From NCBI RefSeq assembly GCF_003334315.1, contig NZ_QOWR01000006.1: a stretch of DNA of 64,000 nt; one strand, written 5' to 3'. The stretch is from Escherichia coli. Lineage in GTDB: Bacteria > Pseudomonadota > Gammaproteobacteria > Enterobacterales > Enterobacteriaceae. This document shows positions 15,001-18,000 of the stretch, piece by piece (positions within the stretch are counted from its first letter, which is position 1; every line of letters starts with the position of its first letter). A program made the position numbers.

Positions 15001-18000
15001 TGCAATAATGCAACGACTTGCCACGCAGTATGGTTCCCGTTTTACCCCTTGCGAGCGTTTGGTCGAGATGGGCGCGCGTGGGGAAAGTTTTTGGAAAACA
15101 ACTGCAACTGACCTGCAATAAGAAGGTCAAAGCTATATGAATCCGCGCTGAATGGCGGAGTGTTGGTCAAAATGTAAACGCATATTGACTATACTTACGC
15201 CATTGAGGTAAAAAACAGCGTTTCATTCGGTGAATGGATAAGGCACAATGCCGGCCACCGTTTTCTTTCTCTGGTTTCAGATGAAAGAAAACGGGCGAAT
15301 CTGGTTAACAAAAGCGGTGCAATATGCAAGTTTTTATCATGCGTCACGGCGACGCAGCCCTCGATGCCGCCAGTGATTCCGTTCGTCCTCTGACCACTAA
15401 TGGTTGTGACGAATCTCGCCTGATGGCGAACTGGCTGAAAGGTCAAAAAGTGGAAATCGAACGCGTTCTGGTGAGCCCGTTCCTGCGAGCCGAGCAAACA
15501 CTGGAAGAAGTAGGGGATTGTCTGAACCTGCCTTCCAGTGCAGAAGTTCTGCCGGAGTTAACGCCCTGCGGCGATGTTGGTCTGGTCAGTGCCTATTTAC
15601 AGGCGTTGACCAATGAAGGTGTTGCTTCGGTACTGGTGATCTCTCACTTACCGTTAGTCGGGTATCTGGTTGCCGAGTTATGTCCGGGCGAAACGCCGCC
15701 TATGTTTACCACCTCGGCCATTGCCAGCGTAACGCTTGATGAAAGCGGAAACGGCACATTCAACTGGCAGATGAGCCCGTGTAATCTGAAGATGGCAAAA
15801 GCTATCTGATGAGTTCCAAATTATGCCCAATGAGGTAGATTCATTGGGCATAATTGCTCATCAGGCAGCGGATATCTGTCAACCTCACTACTATCGAAGA
15901 CTCTCCCCATCTATAAATAAAACACCTTTAACTTTCATTCGGAAAGTATTCTTCTGCGCGTATCTTGATTTTGCCCAAAGTTACATGTTGAAATGAATAA
16001 TGTCTGTTTGACACTCATTATCATTTATTAATACAGATAATGGAGAAAATAGAGTTGAATAATCAGGCAGGACGTAATTGAAACTTGATTAAATTCTGGC
16101 TATAGTGTTTATATATTATATCGACAAAAGCGGGTTAATGCCAATCGCATTATATGTTCATTGTTTGTTTTTTAAGCTATTGGCATTCATTGTTGATATG
16201 CTTCCTGTTTTTTCTAAATATATATTTCGTGTTTTTTTAGAAGATCCTTAAGATAATCTTTCCCCTATCAATATATTAATTAAATCTACATTTACTCATT
16301 AGTAAAATTAAATTGAATCAGGGGAGTGAAAACATCACTATTCGACCCCACACCAACGAATACATTTTTTACGACCTGTTTTTTTGGATCGCATGCCGTA
16401 TTCAATGGCTGGGTATAAACATTGGCTATTGACTGAATCAATGTATTGCAATGTTTATATTTTAATTATTTATAGTTTAAGGACAAATAATGAGTAAGTT
16501 TGTTAAAACAGCTATTGCTGCGGCAATGGTGATGGGCGCGTTCACCTCTACGGCAACAATCGCTGCGGGTAACAACGGTACTGCACGTTTTTACGGCACC
16601 ATTGAAGACTCAGTGTGTTCTATCGTTCCGGACGATCACAAACTGGAAGTTGATATGGGTGATATCGGTGCCGAAAAACTGAAAAATAACGGCACCACCA
16701 CGCCGAAAAATTTCCAGATTCGCCTGCAAGATTGCGTATTTGATACTCAGGAAACAATGACCACTACCTTTACTGGTACCGTTTCTTCTGCAAATAGCGG
16801 CAATTATTACACCATTTTCAATACCGATACCGGTGCGGCATTTAACAATGTTAGCCTGGCGATCGGTGACTCTCTGGGTACCTCTTACAAAAGCGGCATG
16901 GGTATTGACCAGAAAATCGTGAAAGATACTGCCACTAATAAAGGCAAAGCGAAGCAGACTCTGAACTTTAAAGCCTGGCTGGTCGGCGCAGCTGATGCGC
17001 CAGATCTGGGTAATTTCGAAGCAAATACCACCTTCCAGATTACTTACCTGTAAGGCATACCCCCATAGCGACACTGCTATGGGGTATTTAAATGGATTTT
17101 GACCGAACAAGAATAAAAACGGATAAAAACGTGTATGCCTGACCATTCTCTTTTTCGATTACGGATTCTTCCGTGGTGCATTGCGCTGGCAATGTCAGGG
17201 AGTTATAGCAGTGTCTGGGCTGAAGACGACATTCAGTTTGATTCCCGTTTTCTGGAATTAAAAGGCGACACAAAAATTGATCTGAAGCGTTTTTCCAGCC
17301 AGGGGTATGTTGAGCCCGGAAAATACAATTTACAGGTTCAACTAAATAAACAGCCATTGGCGGAAGAGTACGATATTTACTGGTATGCTGGTGAAGATGA
17401 CGTTAGCAAAAGCTATGCTTGTCTGACACCGGAACTGGTGGCGCAGTTTGGTTTAAAAGAAGACGTGGCGAAAAATCTGCAATGGAGCCACGATGGTAAA
17501 TGCCTGAAGCCCGGTCAACTGGAAGGCATGGAAATTAAGGCTGATTTAAGCCAGTCCGCATTAGTCATTTCACTACCGCAGGCTTACCTCGAATATACCT
17601 GGCCCGACTGGGATCCACCTTCTCGTTGGGATGATGGCATCTCCGGGATCATTGCGGACTACAGCATCACTGCGCAAACACGACACGAAGAAAATGGCGG
17701 CGATGACAGTAACGAGATCAGCGGCAACGGGACGGTCGGGGTTAACCTGGGGCCATGGCGTATGCGCGCTGACTGGCAGACCAACTATCAACATACGCGC
17801 AGTAATGATGATGACGATGAATTTGGCGGCGATGACACACAAAAAAAATGGGAGTGGAGTCGCTATTATGCCTGGCGGGCGTTACCGTCATTAAAAGCCA
17901 AACTGGCGCTGGGCGAAGATTACCTCAATTCCGATATTTTCGACGGTTTTAATTATGTTGGTGGCAGTGTCAGCACTGACGATCAAATGTTGCCTCCCAA

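What the first reader, a model, noticed from the sequence alone, without database searches (positions are those of the whole stretch)
15258..15294. Perfect 12-bp stem-loop in the fadJ-sixA spacer
CCGTTTTCTTTC and GAAAGAAAACGG form a perfect inverted repeat with a 13-nt loop, 30 bp before the sixA ATG. There is no adjacent U-tract on either strand, so it is not a canonical terminator. It may be an RNA structure affecting read-through from fadIJ, or a protein-binding palindrome.
Basis: seen in the sequence. Interest (0 to 1): 0.25.

Follow-up and report, generated by a model that had tools for sequence, protein, structure and literature searches.

The report
Conserved RNA hairpin in sixA leader
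The perfect inverted repeat just upstream of the E. coli sixA gene is a real RNA hairpin, kept in shape but not in sequence across the enterobacteria, and published maps show transcripts ending just after it, so it most likely limits how much transcription reaches sixA.

Summary
CCGTTTTCTTTC (15258-15269) and GAAAGAAAACGG (15283-15294) are perfectly complementary, and the RNA fold extends to 16 bp with a GUUU loop (-22 kcal/mol, z -4.5). The window is E. coli and the spacer is identical to K-12.

In 87 Enterobacteriaceae sixA loci, a hairpin of different sequence and length (28 to about 60 nt, 19 sequence families) sits at the same place. Its flanks are about 90% identical to E. coli, while sixA fourfold sites are 54% identical. 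All 8 outer pairs covary. G-U pairs favour the sense strand 170 to 31. It is therefore a selected sense-strand RNA helix, not a protein-binding palindrome.

It lies in the sixA leader, downstream of a conserved sigma-E-type promoter. Published Term-seq places RNA 3' ends 7 and 9 nt after the stem in two of three growth conditions.

In two more distant relatives the same position holds a hairpin plus T-run. This suggests the enterobacterial UUCUGGUU is a decayed U-tract.

Best reading (confidence about 0.5): a leaky leader terminator or 3'-end-forming hairpin that gates sixA expression. Termination versus cleavage and trimming is unresolved, and the start sites were not found. There is no Rfam match and no description in the searched literature.

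The parts
15258..15294 (+). Hairpin H3, the finding. It has 12 perfect bp plus 4 inner bp (15270-15273 with 15278-15281), a GUUU loop at 15274-15277 and a bulged U15282.
   Evidence: pairing probability about 1 in every leader context. Covariation. Strand asymmetry.
15295..15309 (+). Tail after the hairpin (GCGAAUCUGGUUAAC). Published RNA 3' ends fall at 15301 and 15303 (K-12 2456835 and 2456833). CUGGUUAAC is nearly invariant across genera and aligns with T-runs in distant relatives. GG|UUA at 15304/15305 resembles an RNase E site.
   Evidence: (Adams et al. 2021, PMC7815308, supplementary files 1 and 3). The RNase E motif comparison rests on my own knowledge.
15242..15252 (+). Hairpin H2, GGCA-CAA-UGCC. 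It is invariant in sequence, so its pairing is untested by covariation.
   Evidence: It is retained in relatives with 58-70% SixA identity.
15225..15239 (+). Hairpin H1, AUUCG / UGGAU with a 5-nt loop. One pair covaries (A-U 47, G-U 26, G-C 7).
15310..15335 (+). Hairpin over the translation-initiation region: AAAAGC (15310-15315) with GUUUUU (15330-15335), and UGCA (15318-15321) with UGCA (15325-15328). It covers the SD GCGGUG (15314-15319) and the AUG. A MazF ACA lies at 15308-15310.
   Evidence: fold. (codons 2-9 almost invariant at synonymous sites in 87 loci). (MazF cleavage 16 nt upstream of the ATG, PMC5001579).
15104..15131 (+). Sigma-E-type promoter GCAACTG-N16-TCAAA, overlapping the fadJ stop codon. 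The predicted start is near A15137, giving a leader of about 187 nt that contains the hairpin.
   Evidence: motif in 76 of 87 loci. (consensus GGAACTT-16-TCAAA, Rhodius 2006). (sixA stated to be in the sigma-E regulon). (Salmonella ChIP-seq peak). (co-induction). The start site itself is predicted, not mapped here.
15170..15224 (+). Nearly invariant block TGTAAAC..TTGACTATACTTACGCCATTGAGGTAAAAAACAGCG. It holds sigma-70/sigma-S-like elements: TTGACT at 15185-15190, CTATACTT at 15189-15196 and TAAAAA at 15209-15214. Its role as promoter or RNA is unresolved.
   Evidence: No site passed the strict sigma-70 scan.
15148..15207 (+). Imperfect hairpin I1 (27-nt arms, 70% complementary). A published RNA 3' end in LB OD 0.4 sits exactly at its base, at 15207 (K-12 2456929). 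That end has Rho score 1.0 and intrinsic-terminator score 6.7.
   Evidence: It is only partly conserved as a structure.

Best explanation
The inverted repeat encodes a sense-strand RNA hairpin in the 5' leader of sixA. Selection keeps it as a helix but does not constrain its sequence.

Proposed mechanism: it is the stem of a leaky, U-tract-poor leader terminator, or more generally a premature 3'-end-forming hairpin. A fraction of transcripts coming from the sigma-E promoter, from any internal promoter, or from fadIJ read-through end 7-9 nt after the stem. These leave a stable leader RNA. Only the transcripts that read through carry the sixA coding sequence.

What is shown: the hairpin, its conservation by covariation, its strand, its place in the leader, and RNA 3' ends just after it in vivo.

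What is inferred: that the ends arise by termination rather than by cleavage plus exonuclease trimming back to the hairpin, and that this limits or regulates SixA output.
For: 1. Stable fold, formed with probability about 1 in every leader context.
2. 74 distinct variants in 19 sequence families, all forming hairpins. Mean z is -3.2, and 60 of 74 are below -2.
3. Within families, 16 pairs carry compensatory double changes.
4. On the model-based alignment of 82 loci, all 8 outer pairs change on both sides. 82.6% of cells are paired there; for the full 24-pair structure, 93.6% of cells pair against 23-48% when the 3' partners are slid.
5. G-U pairs number 170 on the + strand against 31 on the - strand. 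The + strand fold is more stable in 69 of 74 variants.
6. The flanks are about 90-92% identical to E. coli where sixA fourfold sites are 54%.
7. Term-seq 3' ends lie at +7 and +9 nt from the stem in two of three growth conditions, with read counts of 39,893 and 68,010. That is the usual distance for intrinsic termination.
8. No Rho-termination region is listed at this site, whereas a strong one is listed 129 nt after the sixA stop.
9. In relatives with 58% and 66% SixA identity, the position-homologous hairpin is followed by a T-run and passes the terminator scan. The enterobacterial UUCUGGUU aligns with those T-runs.
10. Only 29 nt separate the stem from the ATG, and no conserved promoter fits there. 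The hairpin must therefore be transcribed in every sixA mRNA.
Against: - In E. coli the 8 nt after the stem contain only 2 U, and the stem is A/U-rich. No terminator-like site is called.
- In Salmonella the tract is AAACUGGUU.
- A tail of 7-9 nt also matches where 3'-to-5' exonucleases stall before a stem. A GG|UUA sequence resembling an RNase E site lies right after the mapped ends. The ends could therefore be processing products.
- The 3' end was not among the dominant ends in LB OD 0.4, and its Rho dependence was measured only in that condition.
- No transcription start data could be retrieved, so the 5' ends of the terminated RNAs are unknown.
- No conserved antiterminator pairing was found, so regulation, as opposed to constitutive damping, is unsupported.
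Confidence: 0.5

Rival explanations
1. Structural module of a larger cis-regulatory leader. H3 would be the variable peripheral helix of a conserved RNA of about 150 nt: a closing helix CAGCGUUU/AAAGCGGUG, then H1, H2, H3 and the translation-initiation hairpin. This RNA would control sixA translation by sequestering the SD and AUG, perhaps in response to a protein, an sRNA, a metabolite or temperature.
For: - The flanks and junctions are nearly invariant while the helix varies, as in riboswitch-like RNAs.
- RNAalifold proposes the long-range helix onto the SD.
- A local hairpin covers the SD and AUG, and codons 2-9 are almost invariant at synonymous sites.
- The Mangrovibacter G-to-C change improves the long-range helix.
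- AACAAAAGC is an (ARN)3-like tract (my knowledge).
Against: - The long-range helix and H2 never vary, so there is no covariation.
- Three distant loci break one long-range pair without compensation.
- H1 has a single covarying pair.
- Predicted SD accessibility is about the same with or without the upstream leader.
- Part of the conserved block may simply be promoter DNA.
- No Rfam family matches.
Confidence: 0.2
2. The hairpin is the 3' structure of a leader-derived small RNA with a function of its own in trans. The conserved 5' part (H1, H2 and junctions) would be the functional region, and H3 the protective or terminating 3' hairpin.
For: - An abundant, discrete 3' end occurs in two conditions.
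- A conserved 5' portion followed by a variable 3' hairpin is the usual sRNA conservation pattern.
- Adams et al. document several sRNAs derived from 5' UTRs.
Against: - There is no U-tail for Hfq binding in E. coli.
- No report or RNA-RNA interaction data was found in the searched library.
- The 5' end is unknown.
- The conservation is equally explained by cis functions.
Confidence: 0.1
3. Stabiliser of the downstream sixA mRNA. After cleavage upstream of H3, or initiation close to it, the hairpin would sit at the 5' end of the sixA message and shield it from 5'-end-dependent RNase E attack, like the ompA 5' stem-loop.
For: - A sequence-independent but structure-dependent requirement fits a protective helix.
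- A weak -10-like CACAAT lies 7-12 nt upstream of the stem (read from the sequence).
Against: - The mapped RNA ends at this hairpin are 3' ends downstream of it, not 5' ends upstream.
- The candidate promoters with conserved motifs lie at least 35 nt upstream.
- CACAAT is the loop and 3' strand of the invariant H2, and no site passed the promoter scan.
Confidence: 0.08
4. A DNA-level element: a palindromic binding site for a dimeric regulator, or a cruciform.
For: Perfect dyad symmetry in E. coli.
Against: - The arm sequences are unrelated between genera, and the arm and loop lengths vary.
- There are many G-U pairs that would be A-C mismatches on the other strand, 170 against 31.
- A 13-nt spacer is atypical for such a site.
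Confidence: 0.02
5. Chance or a neutral by-product, for example template-switch 'perfection' of a quasi-palindrome, with no function.
For: The perfect 12-bp form is specific to E. coli. Close relatives have 1-3 mismatches or wobbles (cluster 4).
Against: - Chance expectation is 0.075 per window.
- The helix persists through complete sequence turnover in about 30 genera, between strongly conserved flanks.
- It is invariant in the most divergent E. coli genome sampled.
Confidence: 0.03

Closest known systems
Rho-independent leader terminators (attenuators) and the premature 5'-UTR 3' ends catalogued by Term-seq (Adams et al. 2021)
   Same: - A stable hairpin in a 5' leader.
- RNA 3' ends 7-9 nt after the stem in vivo.
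- Downstream gene expression requires read-through.
- The position-homologous element in distant relatives has a proper T-run.
   Different: - The E. coli tail has almost no U-tract and the stem is A/U-rich.
- No alternative antiterminator structure, leader peptide or known ligand or protein was found.
- Termination was not shown biochemically.
Exonuclease-blocking, 3'-end-stabilising stem-loops (processed ends of Rho-terminated or cleaved transcripts; REP-type intercistronic stabilisers)
   Same: A sequence-independent stable helix with 3' ends a few nt downstream, between two genes on the same strand.
   Different: - It is single-copy, not a REP family member.
- No Rho-termination region is reported here.
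- It is embedded between strongly conserved flanks, which such stabilisers usually lack.
Riboswitch-like structured leaders with a variable expression-platform helix
   Same: - Nearly invariant junction sequences around a helix that varies in sequence and length.
- The SD and AUG lie in a local hairpin.
- Conservation extends into the first codons.
   Different: - No Rfam match.
- Covariation is demonstrated for only one helix, plus one pair in a second.
- No ligand or partner is known.
- Part of the conserved block may be promoter DNA.

Membership tests
Intrinsic (Rho-independent) terminator / attenuator | Stable stem-loop in the nascent RNA | tested here: met
   -22.3 kcal/mol, z -4.5. Pairing probability is about 1. 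The helix is conserved by covariation. The E. coli stem is A/U-rich, with 4 G-C pairs among the 12.
Intrinsic (Rho-independent) terminator / attenuator | U-tract immediately 3' of the stem | tested here: not met
   E. coli has 2 U in the first 8 nt and no site is called. Most other genera have UUCUGGUU starting 2 nt after the stem. The feature is met only in two distant relatives.
Intrinsic (Rho-independent) terminator / attenuator | RNA 3' ends about 7-9 nt after the stem in vivo | tested here: met
   Published Term-seq places ends at 15301 and 15303, which is +7 and +9. The spacer is identical to K-12.
Intrinsic (Rho-independent) terminator / attenuator | Termination by RNA polymerase alone, independent of Rho and RNases | not testable with these tools
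   No Rho region is listed at the site. However, BCM data exist only for LB OD 0.4, where this end was not called. In vitro transcription is needed.
REP / repeated extragenic palindromes | Many related copies per genome | tested here: not met
   There is one place per genome in 5426 E. coli genomes. The covariance model hits only this locus in the window.
Transcription-factor palindrome | Conserved half-site sequence, symmetric on both strands | tested here: not met
   There are 19 unrelated arm families and variable lengths. G-U pairs number 170 on + against 31 on -.
Known structured RNA families (Rfam 15) | Match to a curated covariance model | tested here: not met
   No hit over the leader at E up to 10 in E. 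coli, and none at E up to 1 in seven other genera.
Riboswitch-like multi-helix leader | Covariation support for several helices around conserved junctions | tested here: inconclusive
   H3 has 8 of 8 pairs covarying and H1 has 1 of 5. H2 and the long-range helix never vary.
5'-terminal mRNA stabiliser hairpin (ompA type) | Hairpin within 0-2 nt of the mRNA 5' end | not testable with these tools
   No start-site data could be retrieved. The conserved promoter-like motifs lie at least 35 nt upstream.

The most novel reading that the evidence does not exclude
The hairpin is the variable helix, or expression platform, of an undescribed leader RNA of about 150 nt that is conserved across the Enterobacteriaceae. 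The RNA spans roughly -115 to +30 of sixA and would be absent from Rfam. It would set SixA output by regulated premature termination and/or SD sequestration in response to an unknown signal. This would couple sigma-E envelope stress to phosphohistidine signalling (NPr/PTS-Ntr, Ndk). The released leader fragment might also act in trans.
Probability: 0.25. Interest if true: 0.65.

Novelty: new member of a known kind. Interest (0 to 1): 0.4.

Why it matters
SixA is the best-known bacterial phosphohistidine phosphatase. It acts on NPr of the nitrogen PTS and, in a 2026 report, on Ndk. Apart from membership of the sigma-E regulon, nothing about its expression control appears in the searched literature.

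A leader kept at the nucleotide level across a whole family, with a covarying hairpin at which transcripts end in vivo, marks post-initiation control of sixA. It gives a concrete, mutable element to test.

It also shows that an 'orphan' Term-seq 3' end has an evolutionarily conserved structural cause. By itself, a leader hairpin with premature 3' ends is a common type of element in E. coli.

Tried and rejected
Ideas tested and rejected:
1. Upstream ORFs. The 42-aa ORF 15248-15376 and a 16-codon ORF starting at ATGGATAAGG were rejected. The hairpin length is not kept in multiples of three, and the ATG is ACG in C. sedlakii and C. amalonaticus.
2. An outer helix extending H3 (CCGG at 15251-15254 with CUGG at 15301-15304). 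Rejected because of uncompensated changes: CCGA in at least 8 loci and CTGT in Trabulsiella and Pseudocitrobacter.
3. A conserved antiterminator pairing between the H1 3' strand or loop and the 5' base of H3. Only 3-5 bp are possible, in shifting registers, so it is not convincing (reading).
4. The 8-bp complement GCATATTG (15180-15187) with CAATATGC (15320-15327). It is not conserved outside Escherichia.
5. A FadR-like site in the loop (CTGGTTTCAGATG). It matches only 8 of 13 positions of the consensus as I recall it, and the loop is not conserved.

Searches that led nowhere:
6. Transcription start data were sought in held supplements of Cappable-seq, Shigella TSS, ROSE, Conway 2014, pyRAP and Rhodius 2006. 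Thomason 2015 and Mutalik 2009 were sought by ID. None was held or contained the site.
7. A second homologue search did not reach beyond Enterobacteriaceae. Loci with 49-51% SixA identity show no leader homology.
8. RNAalifold on the plain MAFFT alignment misses H3 because the arms are not alignable by sequence.
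Full report
**Observation.** The window is E. 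coli. fadI is at 11667-12977, fadJ at 12977-15121, sixA at 15324-15809 and the yfc fimbrial genes lie downstream. The reported repeat is exactly where stated. CCGTTTTCTTTC (15258-15269) and GAAAGAAAACGG (15283-15294) are 100% complementary, 13 nt apart, and end 29 nt before the sixA ATG.

As RNA, the '13-nt loop' pairs internally. The result is about 16 bp with a GUUU tetraloop and one bulged U (-22.3 kcal/mol, z -4.5, 0 of 200 shuffles as stable). Dinucleotide shuffles of the window give 0.075 perfect repeats of at least 12 bp with short loops per 64 kb. No terminator-like or strict sigma-70-like site is called in 14900-16000, and no Rfam family matches at E up to 10. The 241-nt region occurs once in each of 5426 complete E. 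coli genomes. It is identical to K-12 MG1655, and the hairpin is unchanged even in the most divergent E. coli sampled.

**Conservation.** Eighty sixA loci from one genome per species, plus seven more Enterobacteriaceae loci, all have fadJ upstream and a spacer of about 200 nt. The pattern is striking.

- A long block upstream (…TTGACTATACTTACGCCATTGAGGTAAAAAACAGCGTTTCATTCnnTGAATGGATAAGGCACAATGCC(C)GGCCA) is nearly invariant.
- The 26 nt before the ATG (CTGGTTAACAAAAGCGGTGCAAT) are also nearly invariant.
- Between them lies a segment of 28 to about 60 nt with essentially unrelated sequence in different genera, and it always folds into a hairpin.

Relative to E. coli, the flanks are 90-92% identical where fourfold-degenerate sites of sixA are 54% identical. 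Median pairwise identity inside the hairpin is 51%.

**Is the helix selected, and on which strand?** There are 74 distinct hairpin sequences in 19 sequence families. Mean z against dinucleotide shuffles is -3.2, and 60 of 74 are below -2.

Within families, 16 consensus pairs carry compensatory double changes and 27 carry wobble-type single changes, with few broken cells. Within Escherichia alone, two pairs have switched (U-A to C-G and C-G to G-C).

On the plain MAFFT alignment, the 8 outer pairs already show 7 with changes on both sides. On the covariance-model alignment of 82 loci, all 8 do. In that helix 82.6% of cells are paired. For the whole 24-pair structure 93.6% of cells are paired, against 23-48% when the 3' partners are slid. 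The covariation score is 0.206 against a shuffled mean of 0.124, with 0 of 500 shuffles reaching it.

Minimum-energy folds of the + strand contain 170 G-U pairs against 31 on the - strand. The + strand is more stable in 69 of 74 cases, by 5 kcal/mol on average. The element is therefore an RNA helix on the fadJ/sixA sense strand. A protein-binding DNA palindrome is excluded for practical purposes.

**Where it sits in the transcript.** The fadJ stop codon is overlapped by GCAACTG-N16-TCAAA (15104-15131). GAAACTG-N16-TCAAA-like motifs occur at that place in 76 of 87 loci. This matches the published sigma-E consensus GGAACTT-16-TCAAA, with a 5-6 nt discriminator and a purine start (Rhodius 2006).

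Three papers tie sixA to sigma-E:
- sixA is stated to belong to the sigma-E regulon (PMC6282199).
- It has a sigma-E ChIP-seq peak in Salmonella.
- It is co-induced with sigma-E genes in E. coli.

The predicted start is near A15137, which gives a leader of about 187 nt. The invariant block also holds sigma-70/sigma-S-like elements (TTGACT-18-TAAAAA and CTATACTT), but I could not retrieve start-site data. Whatever the promoter, the 29 nt between hairpin and ATG hold no conserved promoter. Every sixA mRNA therefore contains the hairpin. MazF cleavage 16 nt upstream of the ATG has also been reported.

**RNA ends in vivo.** The supplementary tables of Adams et al. 2021 (Term-seq, MG1655) list dominant 3' ends at 2456833 and 2456835 on the minus strand. 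These map to window positions 15303 and 15301, which are 9 and 7 nt after the stem. Average read counts are 39,893 and 68,010. The two ends come from two different growth-condition sheets (LB OD 2.0 and M63 glucose; I could not verify which is which). They are classed 'orphan', 21 and 23 nt before the sixA start.

In LB OD 0.4 the listed end is instead at 2456929, window 15207. This is exactly the base of a second, imperfect hairpin (15148-15207). Its Rho score is 1.0 and its intrinsic-terminator score is 6.7. No Rho-termination region is listed at either site. A strong one (score 9.3) lies 129 nt after the sixA stop. With about 1000 dominant ends per condition genome-wide, two independent ends in the 7-9 nt window after this hairpin are not a coincidence.

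**Mechanism.** The helix forms with probability about 1 in all leader contexts modelled, and its sequence is free to vary. Its role is therefore to be a stable helix. Its arms are not a partner in conserved alternative pairings: I looked for an antiterminator and for an outer extension, and found only weak or uncompensated candidates.

The distance of the 3' ends fits intrinsic termination, but E. coli lacks a U-tract. More distant relatives help here.
- A locus with 70% SixA identity keeps the full architecture, with the tail UCUUUGGUU.
- Loci with 58% and 66% identity keep the GGCA-AAA-UGCC hairpin and the AACAAAA(G/A)CGGUGCA(A/C)UAUG region. At the position of H3 they carry a hairpin followed by CATTATTTTT or ATTTTTGTTA, and both pass the terminator scan.
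- Aligned on the invariant AAC, the enterobacterial (A/C)UUCUGGUU corresponds to those T-runs.

I therefore read H3 plus its tail as a leaky leader terminator with a decayed U-tract. It ends a fraction of transcripts before sixA. Confidence is 0.5.

Termination itself is not shown. The ends could equally come from cleavage in the invariant single-stranded CUGG|UUAAC followed by trimming, or from exonuclease stalling before the stem. Both the RNase E-like motif and the stalling distance rest on my own knowledge.

**Rivals.** The flanks are conserved beyond what a promoter and SD need.
- RNAalifold pairs CAGCGUUU (15216-15223) with AAAGCGGUG over the SD.
- A local hairpin covers the SD and AUG.
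- Codons 2-9 of sixA are almost invariant at synonymous sites in 87 loci.

The hairpin may thus be the variable helix of a larger regulatory leader, or the 3' hairpin of a leader-derived sRNA. These helices never vary, so covariation cannot support them, and H1 has one covarying pair only. A 5'-end protective role is disfavoured, because the mapped ends are 3' ends downstream of the helix.

**Comparison and novelty.** The element works like a leader attenuator or terminator, or like a 3'-end-protecting stem-loop. It fails the U-tract criterion for a canonical intrinsic terminator in E. coli. It is not a REP and not an Rfam family. No paper in the searched library discusses it. Its only trace is two unannotated rows in a Term-seq supplement. 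I file it as a new member of a known kind. There is a roughly one-in-four chance that it belongs to an undescribed conserved regulatory leader of sixA.

Noticed in passing
window 15104-15131: A sigma-E-type promoter, GCAACTG-N16-TCAAA, overlaps the fadJ stop codon. GAAACTG-N16-TCAAA-like motifs are conserved in 76 of 87 Enterobacteriaceae loci. The predicted start is near A15137.
   Followed up: yes
window 15148-15207: An imperfect 27-nt-arm hairpin. Its 3' base coincides exactly with a published Term-seq 3' end in LB OD 0.4 (K-12 2456929; Rho score 1.0, intrinsic-terminator score 6.7). The structure is strong in Escherichia, some Citrobacter and Buttiauxella but weak elsewhere. It lies downstream of the sigma-E start and overlaps the conserved TTGACTATACTT block.
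   Followed up: partly
window 15819-15855: A perfect 15-bp inverted repeat (AATTATGCCCAATGA / TCATTGGGCATAATT, 7-nt loop) begins 10 nt after the sixA stop. It also has no T-run. It creates two mirror-image spurious ORFs that start MPNE… on opposite strands. No dominant Term-seq 3' end is listed there.
   Followed up: partly
window ~15938 (K-12 2456198): A published Rho-termination region (Rho score 9.3, p about 1e-41) lies 129 nt after the sixA stop. It falls in the sixA-yfcV spacer, which other papers list as an H-NS-bound 'promoter island' with RpoD and RpoS SELEX peaks.
   Followed up: partly
window 15310-15350: The sixA translation-initiation region folds into a hairpin covering the SD and AUG, followed by GCGUC-ACGGC-GACGC in codons 6-10. 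Codons 2-9 (CAA GTT TTT ATC ATG CGT CAC GGC) are almost invariant at synonymous positions in 87 loci, whereas fourfold sites overall are 54% identical.
   Followed up: partly
window 15308-15310: An ACA lies 16 nt upstream of the sixA ATG. It matches the MazF cleavage distance listed for sixA in the MazF-regulon paper (PMC5001579) and sits inside the invariant linker.
   Followed up: no
L090 675-903: In a relative with 66% SixA identity, the spacer is about 447 nt. The leader motifs are split: an upstream copy (AAAAAACAGCGTT…CAGGCAAAATGCCCGACC + hairpin) is separated by about 130 nt from a second GGCGTTTC…hairpin + T-run + TIR. This suggests an insertion or partial duplication in the leader.
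   Followed up: no
L062 and L063, about 200-240 nt upstream of sixA: In Kosakonia oryziphila-type loci the region upstream of the leader differs. It carries GGCAACTT…, a closer match to the sigma-E -35 consensus, at a different spacing.
   Followed up: no
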